From NCBI GenBank assembly GCA_035534895.1, contig DATLRC010000006.1:11983-75982 (forward strand): 64,000 nt of DNA, in the 5' to 3' direction. This DNA is from Candidatus Dormiibacterota bacterium. GTDB lineage: Bacteria > Patescibacteriota > Saccharimonadia > Saccharimonadales > UBA4665. The notes under the pieces were generated by a model. The model did not search any database. It was given only the letters and a program-made list of their open reading frames with translations, and was not told where the DNA came from. Below, in pieces: positions 1,021 to 14,745 of the stretch. A program made the translations under genes and the position numbers. Numbering within the stretch: the first letter of the stretch is position 1; every line of letters starts with the position of its first letter.

Positions 1021-1036
1021 GGTCAGAGATTATTGA

Positions 1037-1330
1037 TTAGAAGCCCAAGTCGCCCAATGAGCCCATCATTGGTTGCATTTTTTGAGCCGCTATACGTTGG
1101 CTCTCGGCAATTGCCTCTTTGACGGCATCTTCGATCCAGCGTTCAAGTTGTGCTATATCTTCTAGGTCGACTGACTGGGGGTTGATGTGTATTTTCTTTA
1201 GTTTTTGCTCACCACTGATCTCGACACTTACAGCGCCATCTCCCTTGTTCACGGTAATTATTTGTTTTTGGAGTTCTTTTTGTATTTTCTTAACGCGCAT
1301 TACCATCTTGGCTTGATCAAAACGACTCAT
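1037..1330 (-). CDS. ybaB: YbaB/EbfC family nucleoid-associated protein
   Basis: 97 aa with the family-typical pattern (KIQKELQK..., VSVEISGEQKLKKIHINP). It sits next to recR. Confidence 0.85.
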   Translation of the reverse strand: MSRFDQAKMVMRVKKIQKELQKQIITVNKGDGAVSVEISGEQKLKKIHINPQSVDLEDIAQLERWIEDAVKEAIAESQRIAAQKMQPMMGSLGDLGF

Positions 1331-1364
1331 TGATAACTCCTTTTCCTATAATAATTGTAACAGA

Positions 1365-2621
1365 TTACCTGATAGATTGTCGCTCCGGTTGAAGAACGGT
1401 TTTAAAGCTAGTTTTGGTAGTTGGATTATTGGACCATGCCACAAGATAGAGACGACTATTATAGAGGCTGCTGAGGGAAACGGTAATAACAATCAGGCTG
1501 AGGCCTAAACTTCTGGCCAGGGGATTCAATGGGAAGACCCGATACCATTGGTGCAGCAGATAGGCGATGCCGGTGGCGGTCATCAGAACAATGATCGGCA
1601 GAACCATGGCGGGACTGGATACACCCAGGCCGACAACCAGCCAGCTTACAGCTAGCAAAATTAAATTGGCTTGCCAACGTTTCTGGCGTATTTGCTGGCT
1701 GTAAATAATCAGTCCAACTAGAGCAAAAGCAGTTTGGATAACATCCAAGGCCGGTAAGCTGTCCAGATGTTGACTTGGATCAGCCTTCGTTGGCGTATGC
1801 CAGAAGATGTTCAGAGCAAGATTAATTATATTGTGCAGCAGATTACTCCAGATCGGTATGTTTCCAACAAGTTTTATGCCTAGCCATGGCTCGAAGCCAG
1901 CTAGTCCTCTTGACAAAATAGAGCTGGCCAAAAAGATGATTAAGGGTGCTAGCAAGACTAGGAAAGTCAAACTGCCGAAGATAATTGGTAGTCGGCCGAC
2001 ACGGCTGAGCATTAGTCTAAGTTTCGGGACTTGTAGTGCCACGGCTGTTATTGCTAGCCAAAGTGCACCCGGTATATATAGAACAAAGGCCAAAGCTACT
2101 AACCAGAGCCAGAATTGAAGTCTTCCCTGTTGCCTACCTAGGATAACCATTAAGCCAATAAGAATAAGCGGTACAGTTGCTTGGAGTATATCGGGAGAAC
2201 CAAAACGGGCTAAGAATAAAAACCAACTACCAGCGCCAAAGAGCAGGACTCCTAGGGAGGCTATTTTGTAACCGTGCCATGTTTTTAAAATGTAATAAAC
2301 TAAGGCCAAAGCTACTAGTCCGAAAAAGACGCTCGACAAACGAAAAACCAGTAGACTGTGATGAAAGTGAAACAAAAGTTTTGTTAGCAATATCCAGGGC
2401 CCATTCAACATATCGTGGCCGGAAATGTTCATTAAGTTATTTAAAATTGTGTTCTTGTTGGCTATCTCGATTGGGCTAGCTAAATTAGACGTCAGGGAGC
2501 TAAGTCTAAAAAATAATAAGCCGATTAGAAAAATAAATACTAAACAAGCTGTCAGGAGAGGCATTCCACCTTTAGTCAGAAGCCCAAAAAAACGTCTCAT
2601 ATTTGGCGTTAAGTATAACAC
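1365..2621 (-). CDS. Polytopic integral membrane protein (possibly a GT-C/ArnT-like glycosyltransferase)
   Basis: 418 aa with about 10 or more hydrophobic segments. No catalytic motif could be confirmed by eye, so the function is only a guess. Confidence 0.55.
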   Translation of the reverse strand: MLYLTPNMRRFFGLLTKGGMPLLTACLVFIFLIGLLFFRLSSLTSNLASPIEIANKNTILNNLMNISGHDMLNGPWILLTKLLFHFHHSLLVFRLSSVFFGLVALALVYYILKTWHGYKIASLGVLLFGAGSWFLFLARFGSPDILQATVPLILIGLMVILGRQQGRLQFWLWLVALAFVLYIPGALWLAITAVALQVPKLRLMLSRVGRLPIIFGSLTFLVLLAPLIIFLASSILSRGLAGFEPWLGIKLVGNIPIWSNLLHNIINLALNIFWHTPTKADPSQHLDSLPALDVIQTAFALVGLIIYSQQIRQKRWQANLILLAVSWLVVGLGVSSPAMVLPIIVLMTATGIAYLLHQWYRVFPLNPLARSLGLSLIVITVSLSSLYNSRLYLVAWSNNPTTKTSFKTVLQPERQSIR

Positions 2622-2639
2622 AGAAAGTGAGGCTATAAA

Positions 2640-4007
2640 TTATTGACTAAAGGGGTCAGAATGATGAGTATCAAGTGAACGGAAGCGTTGTTTTTCATTT
2701 TCAAAATAGAGTTCAAGACCACCAGTTGGACCATTGCGGTGTTTTTTGATCAGTATGTCGGTGATCTTCTTGCGGTCGGTATCGGGGTTGTAGTATTCTT
2801 CGCGGTAAATAAAGGCCACCACGTCGGCGTCTTGTTCAATTGAACCTGATTCGCGCAGGTCGGCAAGCTGTGGAATCTGGGGATTGCGGCTTTCAACCGA
2901 ACGACTGAGTTGGCTGAGGGCTAACAAGGGAACGTTTAACTCTCGTGCCACACCCTTAAGCCCGCGTGATATTTCAGAAATTTCCTGTACCCGGTTTGCG
3001 TCTGAATTGTATCGTCCACCGCCACTCATGAGCTGTAGGTAGTCAACAATAATTAAGCCTAATTTTCGCTGATGGTGCTCACGGCGGGCTTTGGTGCGTA
3101 TATCACTAATTGTAATGCCCGGTGTATCGTCAATGTAGATTGGCGCTTCGCTCAATGTTCCCATGGCTTGGCCAATTTTCTCAAAGTCGGTGTCTGTCAG
3201 ATTGCCTGTCCGTAGTGCCCAGGCATCAACTCCTGACTCCATTGACAAGAGGCGGTCTACGAGCTGTTCTTTGCTCATTTCAAGACTGAAAATTAATACC
3301 GGTTGTTTTGTGTCAACGGCAACATTATGAGCAATGTTTAAGGCCAAAGCCGTTTTACCCATCGATGGGCGGGCGGCTAGAATAATAAGGTCTGATGGTT
3401 GTAGTCCGGCTAAGGTGTTGTCCAGGTCTTTGTAGCCGGTCGGTAAGCCTCTAAGTTTTTTCTTATCTTTATGTAGTTCGTCTAGCCGATCAAAACTCTC
3501 GGCCAATATGGCTTCCAGACTGATAACATTGTGCTTAACATGGTGTTGGCTAACTTCAAACAGTCGGCTTTCGGCTTCTTCAATTAGTTCTCTTAAGGCT
3601 TTTGATTCATCATACCCTAGTGCGGTCATGTCCTGAGAGGCAACAATTAAGCGCCTACGCAATGCTTTTTGAGATACTATGTCAGCATACTGTTCCGCAT
3701 GAGCCGCGGTTGGTACGAAGTTGGTAAGTTCGCTTAGATAGGCGCCACCACCAATCATTTCCAAGTAACCATTATTTTTTAACTGGTCAGACAGAGTCAA
3801 AACATCTATGGCTTGTCGCTTTTCGTAAAGCTTGAGCGCTGCTTCGTAAATTCGTTCATGCCTTTTGTCATAGAAATCACTTGGGCTTATAACATCGGCA
3901 ATCTTGACAATGGCATCAGCGTCTATTAAGATCGCGCCGAGCAATGATGCTTCGGCTTCAGCATTTTGGGGCGGTTGCTTAGTAGTGGGTGCTTGTGATG
4001 GTTCCAT
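2640..4007 (-). CDS. dnaB: Replicative DNA helicase DnaB
   Basis: N-terminal PPQNAEAEASLLGAIL, Walker A ARPSMGKTALAL, and RecA-like C-terminal motifs (IIVDYLQLM, LSQLSR). No intein-sized insertion. Confidence 0.95.
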   Translation of the reverse strand: MEPSQAPTTKQPPQNAEAEASLLGAILIDADAIVKIADVISPSDFYDKRHERIYEAALKLYEKRQAIDVLTLSDQLKNNGYLEMIGGGAYLSELTNFVPTAAHAEQYADIVSQKALRRRLIVASQDMTALGYDESKALRELIEEAESRLFEVSQHHVKHNVISLEAILAESFDRLDELHKDKKKLRGLPTGYKDLDNTLAGLQPSDLIILAARPSMGKTALALNIAHNVAVDTKQPVLIFSLEMSKEQLVDRLLSMESGVDAWALRTGNLTDTDFEKIGQAMGTLSEAPIYIDDTPGITISDIRTKARREHHQRKLGLIIVDYLQLMSGGGRYNSDANRVQEISEISRGLKGVARELNVPLLALSQLSRSVESRNPQIPQLADLRESGSIEQDADVVAFIYREEYYNPDTDRKKITDILIKKHRNGPTGGLELYFENEKQRFRSLDTHHSDPFSQ

Positions 4008-4022
4008 TGTTCGTTACCTAGA

Positions 4023-5471
4023 TTATGATTTTAACAGTTCGCCGCCACCAAAAATATTGCTTATGGTATCGACTGCCAGAATAGGTTCATCTGAGCTTGC
4101 GAATTGGCTGGCGTCAGTACTTGGTTTAGCATCTGACAGTAAACATACGATCTCAACTGCCTGGCCCGTTTTTTCTTTTATTATATCTGTTAGTAATTGG
4201 CGGTTTTTAATTTCACTGACTAGCTTGCGGTGGAAGGCAAAACCAAAGCTGAGTGTTAATTTACCCTTTTGACTAAAGTCTGGCTTGGCCATCCTGATGA
4301 TCCCGTAGAGGGTATTGTACTGCTTTTTAAGTGCCGCTAATATGTCAGGCCAAATCGATTCATCAAGGCTGATTAGTTCTTTTGGAGTTGTGGACTCAGT
4401 TTTTCTAGAAGGAGGTGGTAGTTTCGGATCGTTTGTTTTAACAGTGGTTTTGATTTTAGACTTGTTTTCTGCTGGCTCGGTCTCGCTCTTTAGACTCGAT
4501 TTTGGGTCTGGTTTTTGGCTAAGAGCAATTTCTAGGACGACAATTTCAAGTAGTCGTTCGGGGTCAAATGAGGCTGGAACAGACAGCAGTCTATCTAGTA
4601 ACTGAAGTAAAAGCTTGCTTGGCAACTTGTTTGTCTGATCGATTAACTGTTGCCTAAGTTGTCTACTAAGTTGCTTGGCAATGGCAGGAGCTTGAAAGCC
4701 TTGTTCATAAAGGAAGCTGATTAATTTTATAACTTCTTGAGGGTTGGTCTGCAGGCATTTTACTAAAAGGTTAATAGATTCTTCCGGTGGTATGCCCAGT
4801 AAGGAATATACTTCTTGGACGTCGATTGGTTGAGTCTGGTTGGCGGCTTGATCAAGTAGACTTATGCTGTCTCGGAAACTGCCTTCACCATGCTCAGCGA
4901 GCAGAGAAAGTGCCTGGTCACTAATAACAATTTTCTCTTTTTGAGCAATAAAGCGTAAATGCTTAGCTACGGCGGCTGCAGCAACAGGCTTAAAGTTGAA
5001 GTGTTGGGTGCGACTTATGATGGTCTCTGGCAATTTATGTGCTTCGGTGGTGGCTAACATAAACACCACATGGGCTGGTGGTTCTTCAAGTGTTTTAAGC
5101 AATGCGTTGAATGCTTCACGGGTTAGCATGTGTACCTCATCAATAATGTAGACTTTATACTTTGCTAAAACTGGAGCGACATTAACTTTTTCACGCAGTT
5201 CGCGAATTTCATCAATTCTTCTGTTGCTGGCGGCGTCTATCTCTATAATGTCAATGTGCGAACTATCAGATTGATAAGGCAGATTGTTAATTTGATGGGC
5301 TAGAATACGGGCAATAGAGGTTTTACCGACACCACGCGGTCCGCTAAAAAGATAAGCATGGCTGATTCGACCACTCTTCAGTGCTTGTTCCAAAGTTGTG
5401 GTTATATGCTCTTGGCCAACTATTTCAGCCAGACTCATCGAGCGATATTTACGATACAGTGCTTGCCCCAT
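4023..5471 (-). CDS. dnaX: DNA polymerase III subunit gamma/tau
   Basis: YRKYRS...GQEHI start, Walker A GPRGVGKTS, DEVHML, and the sensor motif NALLKTLEEPP...SRTQ. Confidence 0.93.
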   Translation of the reverse strand: MGQALYRKYRSMSLAEIVGQEHITTTLEQALKSGRISHAYLFSGPRGVGKTSIARILAHQINNLPYQSDSSHIDIIEIDAASNRRIDEIRELREKVNVAPVLAKYKVYIIDEVHMLTREAFNALLKTLEEPPAHVVFMLATTEAHKLPETIISRTQHFNFKPVAAAAVAKHLRFIAQKEKIVISDQALSLLAEHGEGSFRDSISLLDQAANQTQPIDVQEVYSLLGIPPEESINLLVKCLQTNPQEVIKLISFLYEQGFQAPAIAKQLSRQLRQQLIDQTNKLPSKLLLQLLDRLLSVPASFDPERLLEIVVLEIALSQKPDPKSSLKSETEPAENKSKIKTTVKTNDPKLPPPSRKTESTTPKELISLDESIWPDILAALKKQYNTLYGIIRMAKPDFSQKGKLTLSFGFAFHRKLVSEIKNRQLLTDIIKEKTGQAVEIVCLLSDAKPSTDASQFASSDEPILAVDTISNIFGGGELLKS

Positions 5472-7215: not shown

Positions 7216-7333
7216 CGAGGTGCGGCTATCGACCATTAAACCGGTCACATATTTTCGTTGTACCAAAAAAGCTTCTCGGTTACCAAGAAGCTTCGTTGTG
7301 TGCTCAAAAACAATAATGAATTATCGCACCTCG
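7216..7333 (-). promoter_or_regulatory. Structured 5' leader of rplJ (candidate L10-leader-type autoregulatory RNA)
   Basis: A 9-bp long-range helix (7216-7224 pairs with 7325-7333) encloses a perfect 8-bp hairpin (7269-7276 pairs with 7286-7293, 9-nt loop). It lies between the predicted promoter and the rplJ Shine-Dalgarno. Confidence 0.45.
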
Positions 7334-7384
7334 GCGACATTATCAAGGCTTTTCGGCCCGTCGCTGTCTTTGGTAACTTAGAAC

Positions 7385-7413
7385 ATATTACTCTGTTAGG
7401 CAGATAAAGTCAA
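7385..7413 (-). promoter_or_regulatory. Candidate sigma70 promoter of rplJ-rplL
   Basis: Minus strand reads TTGACT (7408-7413), a 17-nt spacer, then TAATAT (7385-7390). A small hairpin (7418-7432) sits just upstream, after the stop of the preceding ORF. Confidence 0.5.
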
Positions 7414-9151: not shown

Positions 9152-11503
9152 CTAATGCTTAAGCTGTGTTAGCTTGTACTGGGTGTAGCGTTCAGCTGCT
9201 AGACGATTAAGCTTCGGGTCGTCTGCCTTATTGACGAAGCTCATCGCATCAGCTGTTAGTGGGTGTACGGCAGCCACCTTTTCATGCATCTGTAGTACTA
9301 ATTTGCGGTAGCCGGGGTGCCCTTGGGGACTTGTTCGTATCTCGTGGAGGTGGAAAGCTTGGCGTGCGTTGTAGCTGACCTTCCAGCGCATTTTATGCCC
9401 TAAAAGGGTAGCGTATTGGGCTTCCAGGAGGTATCCGGCTGATTGAAGATGGCTATAAAGTTTAAGGCTTAGATCGAAACAGTGTTCAAATTGTTCGCTC
9501 AATCCGGCTTGGTCAATCAACTCTGGAACTTCAAAGCCAAAGCGCGGTGTCAACTCTTGCCACTCTAAATCCTCAACCATGCGGTGTCGCTGGAGGTCGC
9601 GGAATATGCCGTAATCACAAACAATGTCCCAGCTATAGTGAACTTTTTCGAGGGCTCGACCCGGCTTATGGCGTCTATTTAGACGTTCACCGATGTAGGT
9701 CTTAAAGACACCAACCTTTTTCTCGTAGCTCCAGGCATTAACTTGGTTTTGGATTTGTTTGAGAGACAGCGCGCTATGTTCATAGAGCATGTCTGGAATC
9801 AACTCGAGTTCATTTTTGGGCCAGAAATCAACTAGCTCAACCGGGTCGCTTGTGGGCTGGGCGTGGTTAATGGGCAGTTCCTTTGAAGCCAAATGCTTCA
9901 TGGCTTGTTTGGTGTTAGCGCTGTAGGCGATGGTTGCACCGCCTCGCTCAGGTTTGTCAGCTCTCTCGAGAAAGACAGGGATAATCTTGCGCCCTTCAGT
10001 TAATAATGCTTGTCCAGTCAGTCTGGCCTCTGGTAACTCGTCACTCAAGAGATGCATAATAAGACTTTCAAACGCTTGACCTGATGCAAAGATGCCGACA
10101 GTTGATTTGGTGGCAACTGGTAAGATCGGTCGGGCAGCATCACAAGCTTGGGCTCGGGTAGCTCCCAACCAAGCATTGTCTCGTTCTTTTTCAGGCGTCT
10201 GCGAAGCCAGACGAACATGCTCAGTCAGTCGGTGTACAATCTCAGAATATATCTGGAAGATCTGATCCATGATCTGTTCGTATTGCTGCTTAGTTTTTTC
10301 ATCCAGATACGTTGGCGTGAAGTACTTATATTTTCCATTAGCGTCTGTTTGATCAAAGTAAATATAGCGTGTCGACTGTTCGAGATAGGCTGCTAAGCGT
10401 CCCCATTCTAATTTTTTGGTCAGTAGATTAGAGGCGTTTTCAACCACTACATGTATCCCAGCCAGCTGTTGGACAGAGTCGTCGCCGTATGCCGTGATTA
10501 CCCTCTGCAATAAGTTCTCATCCTTGCCTTGGCTGGATGCGAATTCATCTAGCAGCGTAATTCGCATGTCGTCTCCGCGGCGACTGAGTCGTGCCATAGC
10601 CGCAGCGACGGTCAAGGGGTTTATTTTGTCTGTGAAAGCATAGACATTACCGCTGCTATTAGTGACCACTTGGTCAAGGTATTGCTGGCCGGCGGCGGTG
10701 ATTTGATAATGATTGTCTTTCTTTTCCAGCAAAGGCTGCTGGCTTGGTAACGGCACATCTACATCAGGAGTTGGCTTATTGTTAACTGTTGACACGGTAG
10801 TTGTAATGGACAGTTTTTTGTTTTCTATAATTGATTTTAGTGCTTCCGGCTGAGCAACGGCTGCTTTACTTGGATTTCGAACTGCCAGAGTTTGAGCAAT
10901 TAACTGCCAAATTTGGTCGCTGGCTTTTTCAAGGGACTCGGTTGCAAAGACTACAGGTAAGTTTCGTTGCTTAGCTTCCCAAAGGTAACCGGCTCTTACC
11001 CTCTCTAGAAACTGAACATCTAGATCGTCGAAGCGTTCACCTTGCCCTCGCCCCTGAAGTCGCTCTTTAAGTGTTGTTGCTGGAGCATCTAGGATAATAC
11101 ACAGATCGGGCTCGACACCGTTGACTGCAAAGTCGATAATTCGATTAATCATTTCGTAGTCGGGCACATCGCCGCGTCCATAATACTGTATGGCGAGAGT
11201 AGTCAGATAATTCCGATCCACTAGGCAAATTAAACCCTGTTCGACACTGGTTTTAATGACTTGTAATGATTGGGAGCGGGCAGCGTTATAGAGCAGGACC
11301 TCAGTATTGGTGTTCATTGGGAAATGGGGATCCTGAGTCAGTTGACGAATTGCTCTGGCTGTCAGGTCGCTTTGGCTGTCTGGCTCTCTGAATGAACGAA
11401 CCGGCAGTCCAGCCGCACGAAGGCGGCGGGTCATTTCAAGTAACTGGGTTGTTTTACCAACACCTTCAGGGCCTTCCAGGACAATATATTTGCCTCTACT
11501 CAT
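9152..11503 (-). CDS. tmk-thyX: Fusion protein: thymidylate kinase (N-terminal) plus tandem ThyX-type FAD-dependent thymidylate synthase (C-terminal)
   Basis: The N-terminus, KYIVLEGPEGVGKTTQ...DRNYLTTLAIQY, is typical of Tmk. A Pro-rich linker follows. The roughly 520-aa C-terminal part has two ThyX-like halves, with LEQSTRYIYF in the first and LQRHRM in the second. The ATG overlaps the dcd stop by 8 nt. Confidence 0.8.
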   Translation of the reverse strand: MSRGKYIVLEGPEGVGKTTQLLEMTRRLRAAGLPVRSFREPDSQSDLTARAIRQLTQDPHFPMNTNTEVLLYNAARSQSLQVIKTSVEQGLICLVDRNYLTTLAIQYYGRGDVPDYEMINRIIDFAVNGVEPDLCIILDAPATTLKERLQGRGQGERFDDLDVQFLERVRAGYLWEAKQRNLPVVFATESLEKASDQIWQLIAQTLAVRNPSKAAVAQPEALKSIIENKKLSITTTVSTVNNKPTPDVDVPLPSQQPLLEKKDNHYQITAAGQQYLDQVVTNSSGNVYAFTDKINPLTVAAAMARLSRRGDDMRITLLDEFASSQGKDENLLQRVITAYGDDSVQQLAGIHVVVENASNLLTKKLEWGRLAAYLEQSTRYIYFDQTDANGKYKYFTPTYLDEKTKQQYEQIMDQIFQIYSEIVHRLTEHVRLASQTPEKERDNAWLGATRAQACDAARPILPVATKSTVGIFASGQAFESLIMHLLSDELPEARLTGQALLTEGRKIIPVFLERADKPERGGATIAYSANTKQAMKHLASKELPINHAQPTSDPVELVDFWPKNELELIPDMLYEHSALSLKQIQNQVNAWSYEKKVGVFKTYIGERLNRRHKPGRALEKVHYSWDIVCDYGIFRDLQRHRMVEDLEWQELTPRFGFEVPELIDQAGLSEQFEHCFDLSLKLYSHLQSAGYLLEAQYATLLGHKMRWKVSYNARQAFHLHEIRTSPQGHPGYRKLVLQMHEKVAAVHPLTADAMSFVNKADDPKLNRLAAERYTQYKLTQLKH

Positions 11504-12209
11504 AGGCCATACCCTCTATTTTGGTGGGCATAAGGCGTCTGTCGTTGTAGGCCTTGGGAAGCATTTGATCGGGTGACCAGGTTTTGATGATCGTTTCAAT
11601 ATCGGTTCCCTGTTGGTATTTACCGCTGAATCCATCATCCCGTCCTTCTCCGTAATTCCCGTCTACCGGCCCTGTTTCGTGAAAAACTGCTTGGGCGATT
11701 CGTTCGCCTACCGGAAGCAGTATGGTTTCTCTTTCATTGAGATTATAGATTTCGAGGGTTAAACGATTAATATAACCGGGATCAACCCAACCAGCATCGA
11801 AGCAAACTGCTATACCATTGCGCCCCCAGCTGGAACGGGACTTTAACTCATAGGCCCCAGGGGGGTATATCCCAAAAAATTCGTGAGTATGGGCCAGTAT
11901 GCGTTCTTTTGGTTTCAAAGAGATTACGGGGTGATCTAGAGGAATGTTGCTAACCGGTTTAACGCCGTTTAGCTTGGCCCATTGACCATGTGGTAAAGCC
12001 TTATAAGGGCCCTCAAAGTAGCGCTCAACATCTTCTTTGTCGAATGGGTTATAAATAACTCGGTCATTCATTCGTTCAATGCGGTAGTAATAGTAACCCA
12101 GTGATACGTCAAGGCTGGCATGAGCCACATGATTCGGATTAAATGGAATACAGACAATCCGTCCTTCATTGAGGGCTGCATTAATTTGAGTGTTACTGTA
12201 AACCCCCAC
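11496..12209 (-). CDS. dcd: dCTP deaminase family protein (possibly bifunctional dCTP deaminase/dUTPase)
   Basis: dCTP-deaminase/dUTPase-fold pattern (INAALNEGRIV..., GWVDPGY, RIAQAVF). GTG start at 12209 is preceded by GGAGGA 5 nt upstream. Confidence 0.8.
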   Translation of the reverse strand: MGVYSNTQINAALNEGRIVCIPFNPNHVAHASLDVSLGYYYYRIERMNDRVIYNPFDKEDVERYFEGPYKALPHGQWAKLNGVKPVSNIPLDHPVISLKPKERILAHTHEFFGIYPPGAYELKSRSSWGRNGIAVCFDAGWVDPGYINRLTLEIYNLNERETILLPVGERIAQAVFHETGPVDGNYGEGRDDGFSGKYQQGTDIETIIKTWSPDQMLPKAYNDRRLMPTKIEGMAYE

Positions 12210-12305
12210 GTTTTCCTCCGATACGTTACTATCTTACATAATAAGCACGGGTTTATTCAAGTGTAAAAAGTACTACTTTAATTTATGTAGTAAAATGGTA
12301 GCAAA

Positions 12306-14000
12306 GTGCAAAGTTTAAAAATCTATCAACAATTTAGCATACACCGTCGATTCCTGGTCAGATTTGTTAGCTGGCTGGTAGCTATTCACGGTATATTCTT
12401 ATTGGCTATTGCTCTTCTAGATGCACTGGCAGCAGGTCGCACTTCACACCTAACGGGCCTAATTGTAGATGTCCATATTTGGATTGGCCTTAGTCTGGTC
12501 TATTTAAGTTCACTCTTAGTTCGCCAGAAACAAACAGCCTGGCTGGTGGCCGTTTTGGCTTACTTTTTTTTGTTGGGCCTAGACTCGGCTGTTATTCTCA
12601 ATCTTTCAGACCAACGCCATTTCCCAGTTATGCTGGCTGTTAAATCACTCCTTGTGCCGCTAATGGTTCTGATACTTTTACTTGGCCTACGCCGTGAATT
12701 CAAGGTTCGGAGTGATATTCAGGGTTTTCGGTCTGCTCTTAAGTTTGCGGTTATAGTACTTTCGGTGACAATAGTATATGGCGTTTCAGGTTTTATGTTG
12801 CTTGATAAGTCTGATTTTCACCAAGAATTTACTATCACTGAGGCTTTGCATAGAACTGTTGACCAGTTTGACTTAACTACCACTCACCCAATTAAGGCCT
12901 ATACTAAGCGGGCTCAACTGTTTGCTGACTCACTAAGCTTCATTAGCTTTGGCTCTATCGCCTATATTGGCCTTGCTCTTTTCCAGCCTCTTAAGGCGCG
13001 GCGAGCTGACCAAACCGTTAATCGTCAACAAATGAGTGAATTGTTAGCCAATTATAAGGCTCCGAGTGAGGACTTCTTTAAGATTTGGCCCCACGATAAG
13101 CAGTATTACTTTAACGTTACCAGGACCGCGGGATTAGCGTTCAGGCTCCATCATAGAGTAGCCTTATGCTTGGGAGATCCGATTGGTGATCCTCGGGATA
13201 TCAAGCGCTTACTTAGTGACTTTGCAACTTTTTGTCAAGGCAACGATTGGCTACCTGCTTTTATCCATACTGAAGCTAAGTATCAAGCAAAATATCAAGC
13301 TCTAGGTTACAGTCTTCAATTAATTGGCCGAGAGGCTATAGTTGATATCTCTCACTTTCAGAATGAAGTTGCCAATAACAAGTATTTTCGGCACATTCAG
13401 AATCGTTTTGATAAATTAGGTTTTAATAGCGAAGTACTGGCTCCGCCTCACCACTCGGCTGTTATAGAGCGCCTGAGACAAGTTTCTAATGAATGGCTAG
13501 ATCGCCCTGGACGATCTGAGCGAGGTTTTGTAATGGGCTATTTTAGTGAGCTCTATATGCAACAATGTAATGTAATGGTTGCCCGAGATGCTGCCGGCAC
13601 CATTCAGGCATTTGTCAATCTAGTTCCCGCCGAGTTTGACTCTGTGGAATTAACATTTGACTTGCTTCGTAGCACAACAGACAGCCCAACAAATCTAAAT
13701 GACTATCTACTACTTAATCTAATTGCTGAAGCTGCTGATCAAAACTACATCCGTCTTAATTTAGGATTGTCACCCCTTGTTGGATTAGACAATACACAAA
13801 GTGATGCAGGTCTAATTGATAACTTTTTGCGCTTTGCTTACGCTAACGGTGACCGCTTCTACTCATTTAGTGGTTTGCACCGTTTTAAAGCCAAGTATGA
13901 ACCGAATTGGAGTGATCGCTTCATTGTATATAAAGGCGGCGTCCGGGGCTTCTCACGAACTATGAATTCATTGATGAGGGCAATGCGGGTCAAACTTTAG
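12306..14000 (+). CDS. MprF-like aminoacyl-phosphatidylglycerol synthase (short form: about 6 TM helices plus the lysyltransferase C-terminal domain)
   Basis: Hydrophobic N-terminal third. The C-terminal domain resembles the phosphatidylglycerol lysyltransferase/DUF2156 family (KYFRHIQNRF..., GDRFYSFSGLHRFKAKYEPNW). GTG start without a clear Shine-Dalgarno. Confidence 0.7.
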   Translation: MQSLKIYQQFSIHRRFLVRFVSWLVAIHGIFLLAIALLDALAAGRTSHLTGLIVDVHIWIGLSLVYLSSLLVRQKQTAWLVAVLAYFFLLGLDSAVILNLSDQRHFPVMLAVKSLLVPLMVLILLLGLRREFKVRSDIQGFRSALKFAVIVLSVTIVYGVSGFMLLDKSDFHQEFTITEALHRTVDQFDLTTTHPIKAYTKRAQLFADSLSFISFGSIAYIGLALFQPLKARRADQTVNRQQMSELLANYKAPSEDFFKIWPHDKQYYFNVTRTAGLAFRLHHRVALCLGDPIGDPRDIKRLLSDFATFCQGNDWLPAFIHTEAKYQAKYQALGYSLQLIGREAIVDISHFQNEVANNKYFRHIQNRFDKLGFNSEVLAPPHHSAVIERLRQVSNEWLDRPGRSERGFVMGYFSELYMQQCNVMVARDAAGTIQAFVNLVPAEFDSVELTFDLLRSTTDSPTNLNDYLLLNLIAEAADQNYIRLNLGLSPLVGLDNTQSDAGLIDNFLRFAYANGDRFYSFSGLHRFKAKYEPNWSDRFIVYKGGVRGFSRTMNSLMRAMRVKL

Positions 14001-14745
14001 AAACATGGGAGTGATAACTCTTTTGGAGTCGACCTTGGATCGTATCAATATAAAGTTGTTTAGTGCAACTTCTAAGGTCTTGGAGTGTCCCATTGTTATA
14101 TACGACACAGTCTGGATGGATACTTGTCCGTTGTCGCTCGGTAATGTCTTGGCTATCGATAAACTCAATTTCTGATCTTACAATCTCAACGATGTAGCCA
14201 CTCTGTTTTCTAATGCGCTCAGCGTCAGCCGGGAAGCGGACGCCACCTATAATTGCTAGAGCTGGCTGTTTGGGCATGACAAGCAAGCGTCTGATTATTT
14301 CATCGAACCAGATGCCCGGATCGACCTTTTGGACTAAGTACCCCCCAAGCCATTGTAACAAGCCGCGGTAAAGACGTTTATTTTGGACATTGATCGGAAA
14401 ACTTTGGAGTTTCGAAGAGCCTAATTGATCTAGGAATTCAAATAACTTTTGATAATTTTCTGGGTCTTTGGCTAGTTGATCCTGGCTAAGCTTCAGTTGA
14501 TCAAAGCGTACACTGCGCATAACTGTCTCTTTCAAGATAGCTGGCAACGGTTGTAGCCAAATGTTAATTGCTTCTAGGTTGCTACTCGAAGGAGTTGTCT
14601 GGCTAGAACTGACTAAAGCATTGGCTACCTCGATGATTAAATGTGAACTCTCAGTTACTAGAGAATCATTTGTTTGGCCGGCGAGATAGCCGCCAAGGGT
14701 TGTTTTACCGTGACCAATTGCACCGCAGAGCCCAATGATTACCAT
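13990..14745 (-). CDS. P-loop nucleotide kinase-like protein (dNMP-kinase-like ends with a central insertion)
   Basis: Walker A GLCGAIGHGKTT. The C-terminal IIGGVRFPADAERIR...VVYNNGTLQDL resembles the dNMP kinase family. The exact function is uncertain. Confidence 0.55.
   Translation of the reverse strand: MVIIGLCGAIGHGKTTLGGYLAGQTNDSLVTESSHLIIEVANALVSSSQTTPSSSNLEAINIWLQPLPAILKETVMRSVRFDQLKLSQDQLAKDPENYQKLFEFLDQLGSSKLQSFPINVQNKRLYRGLLQWLGGYLVQKVDPGIWFDEIIRRLLVMPKQPALAIIGGVRFPADAERIRKQSGYIVEIVRSEIEFIDSQDITERQRTSIHPDCVVYNNGTLQDLRSCTKQLYIDTIQGRLQKSYHSHVSKV

What the first reader, a model, noticed from the sequence alone, without database searches (positions are those of the whole stretch)
9152..12209. 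Thymidylate pathway compressed into two overlapping genes, including a Tmk-ThyX fusion
The 783-aa ORF joins a canonical thymidylate kinase to a ThyX-type region. The kinase part carries the P-loop LEGPEGVGKTTQ and spans about 205 aa. A Pro-rich linker connects it to a roughly 520-aa region with two ThyX-like halves.

The first half retains LEQSTRY and the second retains RHR. This is the pseudo-dimeric tandem ThyX arrangement known from a few lineages.

Immediately upstream, and overlapping by 8 nt (ATGAGTAG), is a 237-aa member of the dCTP deaminase/dUTPase family. The gene order matches consecutive reactions: dCTP to dU(M/T)P, then to dTMP, then to dTDP. The last two steps are physically fused, which would allow substrate channelling.

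A Tmk-ThyX fusion is not a standard architecture as far as I know.
Basis: partly seen in the sequence, partly recalled or inferred. Interest (0 to 1): 0.6.

Follow-up and report, generated by a model that had tools for sequence, protein, structure and literature searches.

The report
Thymidylate kinase fused to split-site double ThyX
This small-genome Saccharibacteria bacterium makes its thymidine nucleotides with a dCTP deaminase gene followed by one 783-residue protein that joins thymidylate kinase to a duplicated ThyX thymidylate synthase; the fusion is real and is the normal arrangement in this bacterial order, but public databases label it only 'dTMP kinase' and I found no paper describing it.

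Summary
The 783-aa ORF (9152-11503, minus strand) is Tmk (aa 1-205), a roughly 55-aa disordered linker, and two Thy1/ThyX domains. A 237-aa dCTP-deaminase-family gene overlaps its start by 8 nt (ATGAGTAG).

It is not an artefact. At least 120 full-length orthologues exist, and the single ORF occurs in 21 of 22 sampled genomes of the same family and in most other families of the order. Other orders of the class carry dcd, tmk and thyX as three adjacent genes, so the fusion arose from an operon pair.

The two ThyX halves are only 14% identical and have lost complementary residues. Half 1 keeps the dUMP-loop residues (E375, S377, R379, Y380, R458). Half 2 keeps RHR639-641, R714 and R723. I infer a homodimer with two composite active sites instead of four.

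The genome has no ThyA, no other ThyX or Tmk, no separate trimeric (PF00692) dUTPase and no dCMP deaminase, so this operon is its only detectable route to dTDP. In relatives that carry ThyA, the ThyX module is usually lost or decayed.

Substrate channelling is unproven. This scan has already reported the same architecture in more than 100 other genomes.

The parts
12238..12267 (-). Promoter-like site TTTACA-18-TATTAT upstream of dcd, in the 96-nt divergent intergenic region shared with the MprF-like gene
   Evidence: Consensus scan, 10 of 12 matches. The region as a whole had no more such sites than shuffled sequence, so this is weak evidence only.
11496..12209 (-). dcd: 237-aa dCTP deaminase family protein, probably the dUMP-forming bifunctional type. 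GTG start with a GGAGG Shine-Dalgarno sequence.
   Evidence: Pfam DCD 103.9 bits. TIGR02274 scores 88.7, just under its 92.8 cut-off. The best solved relatives are 4xjc, 2qxx and 1ogh, with the RSSxGRxG and TLE motifs conserved; the PDB titles 1ogh bifunctional/dUMP-forming, and that 4xjc and 2qxx are bifunctional too is from memory. It is the only dUTPase-superfamily gene in the genome.
11496..11503 (-). 8-nt overlap ATGAGTAG between the dcd stop and the tmk-thyX start (translational coupling); GAGGG lies 11-15 nt upstream of the ATG
   Evidence: Sequence read directly.
10889..11503 (-). Tmk domain, aa 1-205 (P-loop GPEGVGKTT, DRN motif, Arg-rich LID RLQGRGQGERFD)
   Evidence: Pfam and NCBIfam matches. 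phmmer against P. aeruginosa Tmk 4e5u gives 2.5e-22 with the motifs aligned. Foldseek TM-score normalised to the target is 0.74-0.81 against Tmk structures.
10718..10888 (-). Linker, aa 206-262: low complexity, 7 Pro, predicted disordered
   Evidence: pLDDT 30-49 for aa 210-253. No Pfam match.
9869..10717 (-). ThyX half 1, aa 263-545. Keeps the dUMP-loop role (WGR367-369, E375, S377, R379, Y380, R458). Has lost the first Arg and the His of RHR and the equivalents of T. maritima R165 and R174.
   Evidence: Thy1 64.4 bits alone. A profile of the tandem family aligns this half to M. tuberculosis ThyX 3gwc residues 49-227, E 1.5e-12. The retained residues are invariant in alignments A1-A3.
10364..10405 (-). 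Half-1 signature WGRLAAYLEQSTRY (aa 367-380)
9155..9868 (-). ThyX half 2, aa 546-783. Keeps the FAD/RHR role (R639 H640 R641, R714, R723, H729). Has lost the equivalents of S88, R90, Y91 and R147 (now Q, L, T and Q).
   Evidence: Thy1 57.9 bits alone. The profile aligns this half to T. maritima ThyX chain positions 69-213, E 1.3e-5. The retained residues are invariant.
9581..9589 (-). RHR motif of half 2 (aa 639-641)

Best explanation
The two genes form a compact dTDP-synthesis operon of a Saccharibacteria (order Saccharimonadales) genome of about 0.87 Mb.

- **Step 1 (inferred).** Dcd converts dCTP to dUMP, probably directly as a bifunctional deaminase/diphosphatase.
- **Step 2 (inferred from conserved residues and genome context).** The C-terminal double-ThyX module methylates dUMP to dTMP, using FAD, NADPH and methylene-tetrahydrofolate.
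- **Step 3 (inferred from a curated equivalog-level match).** The N-terminal Tmk domain phosphorylates dTMP to dTDP.

The double ThyX is an ancient internal duplication in which the halves have subfunctionalised. Half 2 supplies the RHR/FAD-binding residues and the uracil-binding Arg. These are the roles of subunits A and B of a canonical ThyX tetramer. Half 1 supplies the Ser-x-Arg-Tyr substrate loop, which is the role of subunit C. Two polypeptides should therefore pair into a pseudo-tetramer with two complete active sites instead of four. The same twofold would also bring together the Tmk domains, and Tmk is normally a homodimer.

The fusion arose in the Saccharimonadales lineage by joining the adjacent tmk and thyX genes of an older dcd-tmk-thyX operon. 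It fixes a 1:1 ratio and proximity of the last two enzymes. True channelling is possible but not shown.

The confidence given applies to the core claim: a real, conserved gene encoding a working Tmk and a working thymidylate synthase. I put the two-site dimer at about 0.6 and the bifunctional Dcd at about 0.6.
For: **The fusion is real and conserved**
- At least 120 clusters (90% identity) hold 765-799-aa orthologues with the same Pfam architecture, 69-76% identical to this protein.
- A single ORF of 737-864 aa is present in 21 of 22 sampled genomes of the same family and in most other families of the order.
- dcd lies directly upstream in G063, G186, G087, G238, G289 and G331.

**Origin**
- dcd, tmk and thyX are three separate adjacent genes in other orders of the class: G223, G243 and G218, and G308, G251 and G227.
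- In G055, tmk and thyX share a reading frame and are separated by a single stop codon.

**Domains**
- The full-length model has pLDDT 80.8 with a disordered linker.
- The ThyX-only model has pLDDT 89.9 and pTM 0.85. Its top 50 PDB hits are all ThyX-family chains, with target-normalised TM-scores of 0.62-0.73 (most 0.65-0.73).

**Split active site**
- The alignments to M. tuberculosis and T. maritima ThyX were combined with the published assignment of residues to subunits: A = RHR + R199, B = S71 + R190, C = R87, S105, R107, Y108 (PMC6514825).
- The two halves align in register at 14% identity, with WGR opposite RHR.
- All 12 mapped residues are kept in 84 of 91 stand-alone tandem ThyX cluster representatives and in this protein.

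**Needed by the cell**
- The genome is estimated 100% complete. It has one Thy1-bearing gene and one Tmk gene and no ThyA.
- It has no separate PF00692 dUTPase and no PF00383 deaminase.
- SHMT, DHFR and ribonucleotide reductase are present.

**Selection logic**
- Across 201 genomes of the order: ThyA absent and Thy1 present 162, ThyA present and Thy1 absent 21, both 10, neither 8.
- Four genomes with shortened fusion ORFs of 557-640 aa, where only the Tmk part matches, have no detectable Thy1 domain. A fifth (G385, 736 aa) keeps two Thy1 matches. All five carry ThyA.
Against: - No biochemical data exist for any member.
- TIGR02170 (the thyX equivalog model) scores only 51.1 bits against a cut-off of 87.9. 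A single-sequence search of the PDB with the ThyX module finds nothing, so the module is very divergent from characterised ThyX enzymes.
- Neither half has a complete ThyX signature.
- The two-site homodimer is inferred from sequence mapping and a review's description. I could not inspect model coordinates or model the dimer.
- Whether Dcd is bifunctional cannot be decided from sequence, and dimeric or MazG-type dUTPases were not searched for.
- The 55-aa flexible linker argues against a fixed channel.
- Related genomes are not independent samples, so the ThyA/ThyX anticorrelation is descriptive only.
Confidence: 0.8

Rival explanations
1. The fusion is an assembly, sequencing or frameshift artefact that joins two separate genes.
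For: tmk and thyX are separate adjacent genes in other orders of the class. In G055 only a single stop codon separates them in the same frame. Read coverage could not be checked.
Against: The same uninterrupted ORF, with a linker of similar length, occurs in over a hundred independent assemblies, including single-contig genomes such as G063, G340 and G235. The linker region contains no stop in this frame.
Confidence: 0.02
2. The ThyX module in this protein is a non-catalytic relic and the protein works only as a thymidylate kinase. The module would have a structural or regulatory role, and thymidylate would be obtained from the host.
For: Of the 41 Tmk-fused cluster representatives, 34 keep 8 or fewer of the 12 mapped residues (2 of them are fragments), while their Tmk domain stays conserved. 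Saccharibacteria are host-dependent. The module scores below the thyX equivalog cut-off.
Against: This protein keeps 12 of 12 mapped residues, as do the stand-alone tandem enzymes. Its genome has no ThyA, whereas the five genomes checked with short or poorly matching fusion ORFs all carry ThyA. The ThyX part is 61-70% identical across the order, more conserved than the Tmk part. A dUMP-producing enzyme, SHMT and DHFR are all retained.
Confidence: 0.07
3. The double-ThyX module catalyses a different flavin-dependent pyrimidine methylation (for example UMP or dCMP methylation, as in PolB-type enzymes) rather than dUMP to dTMP.
For: The UMP/dUMP methylase PolB (4p5b) is among the structural matches. 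The module is very divergent from characterised ThyX enzymes.
Against: The gene sits in an operon with dcd and is fused to Tmk. It is the only candidate thymidylate synthase in a complete genome. It is anticorrelated with ThyA across the order. The dUMP-binding Ser, Arg and Tyr residues are conserved.
Confidence: 0.05
4. The fusion exists to channel dTMP directly from the ThyX site to the Tmk site.
For: The fusion joins consecutive enzymes. The architecture is conserved across the order. A homodimer would satisfy both the Tmk dimer and the ThyX pseudo-tetramer (inference).
Against: The linker is about 55 residues long and predicted disordered. Fused Tmk domains come in at least two types only about 25% identical to each other, and in G280 the fused P-loop is broken while a stand-alone tmk lies upstream. 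This suggests the Tmk-ThyX interface is not tightly constrained. Relatives work with separate genes.
Confidence: 0.25

Closest known systems
Canonical homotetrameric flavin-dependent thymidylate synthase ThyX/FDTS (EC 2.1.1.148; T. maritima TM0449 1O26, M. tuberculosis 2AF6/3GWC, H. pylori 3N3Y)
   Same: - Same Thy1 fold: Pfam PF02511 matches twice, and Foldseek target-normalised TM-scores are about 0.7.
- Same set of FAD- and dUMP-binding residues (RHR, Ser-x-Arg-Tyr, and the Arg equivalents of T. maritima R147, R165 and R174).
- Same genomic role as the only thymidylate synthase in a genome that lacks ThyA.
   Different: - Two ThyX domains, only 14% identical, sit on one chain.
- The signature is split, so neither domain is complete on its own.
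- Two sites per particle are predicted rather than four.
- It is fused to Tmk.
- It scores below the TIGR02170 cut-off, and no solved structure has the tandem form.
Stand-alone tandem ThyX of about 510-560 aa in CPR bacteria and DPANN archaea (named 'FAD-dependent thymidylate synthase' by NCBI)
   Same: Same two-domain layout and the same 12 conserved residues in the same halves. These proteins are 32-55% identical to aa 255-783 of this protein.
   Different: They have no Tmk domain. In other orders of the class Saccharimonadia, tmk is a separate gene immediately upstream. From memory, not tested here, the roughly 529-aa chlamydial ThyX may belong to this tandem type.
Bacterial type II thymidylate kinase (E. 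coli 4TMK, P. aeruginosa 4E5U)
   Same: 30-35% identity, a P-loop without Arg, the DR motif and an Arg-rich LID. TIGR00041 scores above its cut-off.
   Different: It carries a 578-aa C-terminal extension. Other fusions in the order carry a second, divergent Tmk type (EGTDGSGKGTQ...FDFPQY), only about 25% identical to this one.
Other bifunctional enzymes of the thymidylate pathway: DHFR-TS of protozoa and plants (from general knowledge), and the Tmk-dUTPase fusion predicted in a baculovirus (PMC4895240, abstract seen)
   Same: Enzymes of dTTP synthesis are fused on one chain.
   Different: The partner enzymes and folds differ, and no ThyX is involved.
Bifunctional dCTP deaminase-dUTPase (M. jannaschii 1OGH, M. 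tuberculosis 2QXX, B. halodurans 4XJC)
   Same: These are the best solved relatives of the upstream gene, with the catalytic Ser/Arg/Glu motifs conserved. The genome has no separate trimeric dUTPase.
   Different: The protein is 237 aa, with an insertion of about 40 aa (roughly aa 50-90) and a C-terminal extension. It scores just below the TIGR02274 cut-off. Bifunctionality is not demonstrable from sequence.

Membership tests
ThyX / FDTS (Pfam Thy1 PF02511) | Profile match above the curated cut-off | tested here: met
   Whole protein 116.4 bits. The halves alone score 64.4 and 57.9 bits against a cut-off of 24.8.
ThyX / FDTS | ThyX fold | tested here: met
   The AlphaFold2 model of aa 255-783 has pLDDT 89.9. 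Its top 50 PDB hits are all ThyX-family chains, with target-normalised TM-scores of 0.62-0.73 (most 0.65-0.73).
ThyX / FDTS | Complete signature RHRxxSxxxxSxR(Y) within one subunit | tested here: not met
   Half 1 reads WGRLAAYLEQSTRY (RHR lost). Half 2 reads RHRMVEDLEWQEL (Ser and Arg lost). The signature is complete only across the two halves.
ThyX / FDTS | NCBIfam equivalog TIGR02170 at or above its cut-off | tested here: not met
   51.1 bits against a cut-off of 87.9.
ThyX / FDTS | Homotetramer with four FAD-containing sites; dUMP to dTMP activity | not testable with these tools
No assay is possible.
Tandem (double) ThyX subfamily, as annotated but uncharacterised | Two Thy1 domains with 12 conserved residues partitioned as half 1 (R, E, S, R, Y, R) and half 2 (RHR, R, R, H) | tested here: met
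   This protein has 12 of 12. So do 84 of 91 stand-alone representatives. The same positions are invariant columns in A1, A2 and A3.
Thymidylate kinase (TIGR00041 / PF02223) | Equivalog score above cut-off, with P-loop, DR motif and LID | tested here: met
   107.9 bits against a cut-off of 83.25. The motifs align with P. aeruginosa Tmk. Foldseek target-normalised TM-scores are 0.74-0.81.
dCTP deaminase (PF22769 / TIGR02274) | Profile match and catalytic Ser, Arg and Glu | tested here: met
   Pfam 103.9 bits against a cut-off of 27. RSSWGRNG and LTLE align to 4xjc and 2qxx. TIGR02274 scores 88.7, slightly below its 92.8 cut-off.
Bifunctional dCTP deaminase-dUTPase (dUMP-forming) | Releases dUMP rather than dUTP | tested here: inconclusive
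   The closest solved relatives are 4xjc, 2qxx and 1ogh; only 1ogh is titled bifunctional in the PDB listing, and bifunctionality of the other two is from memory. No separate PF00692 dUTPase is present. No sequence feature that discriminates the two types was tested, and other dUTPase families were not searched.

The most novel reading that the evidence does not exclude
The protein represents an uncharacterised class of flavin-dependent thymidylate synthase. In this class an internally duplicated ThyX has divided the active-site residues between its two halves. It therefore works only as an asymmetric pseudo-tetramer with two sites. In Saccharimonadales it is wired to Tmk so that a single homodimer converts dUMP to dTDP, with kinetic coupling between the two activities.
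Probability: 0.35. Interest if true: 0.6.

Novelty: new variant of a known kind. Interest (0 to 1): 0.4.

Why it matters
- **Annotation.** NCBI and JGI mostly call these 780-aa proteins 'dTMP kinase'. The cause is that the Tmk equivalog model passes its cut-off while the thyX model does not. Automated metabolic reconstructions can therefore miss the only thymidylate synthase of most Saccharimonadales.
- **Enzymology.** The split-site tandem ThyX is a natural experiment on how many of the four ThyX sites are needed and which subunit contributes what. No structure or kinetic study of this form was found.
- **Evolution.** The series runs from three separate genes, to a fusion, to decay of the ThyX module where ThyA is present, to Tmk alone. 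It is a clear example of non-orthologous displacement acting inside a fusion protein in reduced genomes.

Tried and rejected
- **Single-sequence PDB search.** phmmer with the ThyX module against the PDB found nothing even at E up to 10. An alignment profile was needed.
- **Foldseek with the full-length model.** It returned only Tmk chains in the top 50, so a second model of the ThyX module alone was made.
- **Literature searches that found no description of the fusion or of a tandem ThyX:**
  - ThyX + thymidylate kinase + fusion
  - ThyX + Saccharibacteria
  - ThyX + Chlamydia + tandem
  - ThyX + CT632
  - ThyX + fused/bifunctional
  - thymidylate synthase + Saccharibacteria
  - text searches of PMC9931769 and PMC5954106
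- **Papers not available.** One DOI look-up failed, and the residue-name search returned nothing.
- **Chlamydial ThyX.** My recollection that it is of the tandem type could not be verified here.
- **Thymidine kinase.** There is only a borderline hit, 20.6 bits in a 368-aa ORF. I treated it as unreliable.
- **Rejected readings.** The artefact explanation and the dead-relic explanation for this particular protein were considered and rejected, for the reasons given under the rival explanations.


Full report
**Observation**

The window carries two overlapping minus-strand ORFs. The first, 11496..12209, encodes 237 aa from a GTG start preceded by GGAGG. The second, 9152..11503, encodes 783 aa.

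- Pfam finds Thymidylate_kin at aa 9-198 (91.8 bits) and Thy1 twice.
- Scanned separately, the two C-terminal halves each pass the Thy1 cut-off, at 64.4 and 57.9 bits against 24.8.
- The upstream protein is a DCD-family member at 103.9 bits.

The description is therefore correct. The one error is the claim that order follows the pathway. The kinase, which is the last step, is N-terminal, and the synthase, which is the middle step, is C-terminal.

**Organism and context**

Close homologues are named as coming from Candidatus Saccharimonadales / Patescibacteria metagenome-assembled genomes. The genome is 865 kb in 23 contigs and is estimated 100% complete.

The operon lies in the stretch between rplJ and rplA. 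The L10 leader is at 7256-7391. The same stretch holds an MprF-like gene and a DNMK-like kinase gene. A promoter-like site lies upstream of dcd, but the region has no more such sites than shuffled sequence.

**Is the fusion real?**

Yes.
- At least 120 clusters (90% identity) contain 765-799-aa proteins with the same architecture and 69-76% identity.
- In samples of species-representative genomes, one uninterrupted ORF of 737-864 aa holds both parts in 21 of 22 genomes of the same family and in most other families of the order.
- dcd sits immediately upstream in G063, G186, G087, G238, G289 and G331.

**Origin of the fusion**

In other orders of the class the same three activities are three separate adjacent genes, dcd then tmk then thyX, with intact ThyX motifs. 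Examples are G223, G243 and G218 and G308, G251 and G227. In G055, from another class, tmk and thyX share a frame and are split by a single stop codon. The fusion is therefore a lineage-specific joining of an older operon pair.

**The ThyX module**

A search of 1.84 billion cluster representatives with aa 255-783 found 699 clusters at E<=1e-30. They include stand-alone proteins of about 510-560 aa as well as Tmk-fused ones. Relatives of one stand-alone form are named 'FAD-dependent thymidylate synthase' in DPANN archaea. The tandem ThyX is thus a large family of its own, already auto-annotated.

A single-sequence search finds no solved structure. A profile of 67 family members aligns the two halves as follows:
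- half 1 to M. tuberculosis ThyX residues 49-227 (E 1.5e-12)
- half 2 to T. maritima ThyX native residues about 57-201 (E 1.3e-5)

The two halves align to each other in register at only 14% identity.

The AlphaFold2 model of the module is confident (pLDDT 89.9, pTM 0.85). Its top 50 PDB hits are all single-domain ThyX-family chains that cover under half of it. No tandem form has been solved.

**Split active site**

I read the alignments against the published subunit assignment for the M. tuberculosis enzyme (PMC6514825):
- subunit A: RHR95-97 and R199
- subunit B: S71 and R190
- subunit C: R87, S105, R107 and Y108

| | Keeps | Has lost |
|---|---|---|
| Half 2 | R639-H640-R641, R714 (M. tuberculosis R190 / T. 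maritima R165), R723 (R199 / R174), H729 | Ser, Arg and Tyr of the substrate loop (now Q649, L651, T652); the R147 equivalent (now Q) |
| Half 1 | E375, S377, R379, Y380, R458 (T. maritima R147) | RHR is now WGR; Arg is absent at the R165 and R174 positions |

The 12 retained residues are invariant across the three alignments. They are all present in 84 of 91 stand-alone representatives.

From this I infer that half 2 plays the A and B roles and half 1 the C role. A dimer of the polypeptide would then form a pseudo-tetramer with two complete sites and two vestigial ones. This is sequence-based inference. I could not inspect coordinates or model the dimer.

**Tmk and Dcd**

The Tmk domain passes the NCBIfam equivalog cut-off (107.9 against 83.25). 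It aligns motif-for-motif with P. aeruginosa Tmk and superposes on Tmk structures.

The linker, aa 210-253, has pLDDT below 50.

The best solved relatives of Dcd are 4xjc, 2qxx and 1ogh; the PDB names 1ogh a bifunctional, dUMP-forming enzyme, and from memory the other two are bifunctional as well. E. coli Dcd (monofunctional, from memory) scores much lower. The genome has no separate PF00692 dUTPase and no PF00383 deaminase. A dUMP-forming role is therefore the economical reading, but it is not proven.

**Physiological need**

The genome has one Thy1-bearing gene, one Tmk gene and no ThyA. It has SHMT, DHFR and ribonucleotide reductase. The operon is its only detectable route from dCTP to dTDP.

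**Comparative support**

I cross-tabulated 201 genomes of the order, assuming both searches drew the same sample:

| | Thy1 present | Thy1 absent |
|---|---|---|
| ThyA absent | 162 | 8 |
| ThyA present | 10 | 21 |

- Four genomes have shortened fusion ORFs (557-640 aa) in which only the Tmk part is still recognisable and no Thy1 domain is detected. A fifth (G385, 736 aa) keeps two Thy1 matches. All five carry ThyA.
- Of the 41 Tmk-fused cluster representatives, 34 keep 8 or fewer of the 12 mapped residues (2 of them are fragments), although some have a Tmk part 75% identical to this one.

This pattern is what is expected if the intact module, as here, is the working thymidylate synthase and decays once ThyA takes over. 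Related genomes are not independent, so I give no statistic.

**Fusion partner variability**

Fused Tmk domains come in at least two types, only about 25% identical to each other, attached to ThyX parts that are 61-70% identical. In G280 the fused P-loop is broken (GIEGQTKDAQ) and a stand-alone tmk lies upstream. G235 also has an extra tmk. Together with the flexible linker, this argues that the fusion mainly secures co-expression and proximity rather than a precise channel.

**Novelty**

The architecture is in public databases under partial names. This scan has already reported it on more than 100 other genomes, with follow-up agents reaching the same reading. I found no paper describing the fusion or the split-site tandem ThyX in the searchable library.

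I classify it as a new variant of a known kind, of moderate interest. It is well supported as real and functional, and it is ordinary for its lineage, but it has not been characterised biochemically or structurally.

Noticed in passing
Related genomes G387, G471, G436, G455, G385; proteins P0220, P0244, P0142, P0163: Many Tmk-fused relatives carry a decayed ThyX module: 8 or fewer of the 12 mapped residues, or no Thy1 match at all. Their Tmk domain stays conserved. The five genomes checked all carry ThyA. Across 201 genomes of the order, ThyA and Thy1 are strongly anticorrelated (162, 21, 10 and 8 for ThyX only, ThyA only, both and neither).
   Followed up: partly
L006 (G186), L007 (G087), L010 (G265), L012 (G289), L013 (G331) compared with window 10889-11503: The fused Tmk domain exists in at least two divergent types: EGPEGVGKTTQ as in this window, and EGTDGSGKGTQ...FDFPQY. 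They are only about 25% identical, although the attached ThyX parts are 61-70% identical. This suggests either domain replacement or two independent fusions.
   Followed up: partly
L020 (G280) 1022-4035; L019 (G235) 1037-3865: In G280 the fused kinase domain has a broken P-loop (GIEGQTKDAQ), and a separate 210-aa tmk lies between dcd and the fusion. G235 also has an extra stand-alone tmk upstream of an intact fusion.
   Followed up: partly
L008 (G055) 1474-3786: tmk and tandem thyX lie in the same reading frame and are separated by a single stop codon. This looks like a snapshot of a fusion or fission event, in a genome of another class of the phylum.
   Followed up: no
window 13990-14745 (-): A 251-aa protein matches Pfam DNMK (deoxynucleotide monophosphate kinase, PF21448) at 39.9 bits. 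It lies 1.8 kb from the thymidylate operon and overlaps the end of the MprF-like gene by 11 nt.
   Followed up: partly
window 12306-14000 (+): A 564-aa protein carries a C-terminal lysyl-phosphatidylglycerol synthase domain (PF09924, 202.8 bits). It is transcribed divergently from dcd.
   Followed up: no
window 7256-7391 (-): An Rfam ribosomal protein L10 leader (60.2 bits) lies upstream of rplJ. The thymidylate genes sit in the gap between rplJ/rplL and rplK/rplA, which earlier scan notes also report for other Saccharibacteria.
   Followed up: no
G623, G409, G403, G244 (same order): A few genomes of the order carry a canonical single-domain ThyX of 252-297 aa with Thy1 scores of 143-170 bits. 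In G244 it is present in addition to the fusion. This is probably horizontal acquisition.
   Followed up: no
G265:C1:199807-200547: A ThyA gene lies immediately upstream of an intact Tmk-ThyX fusion, at the position where dcd sits in other genomes.
   Followed up: no
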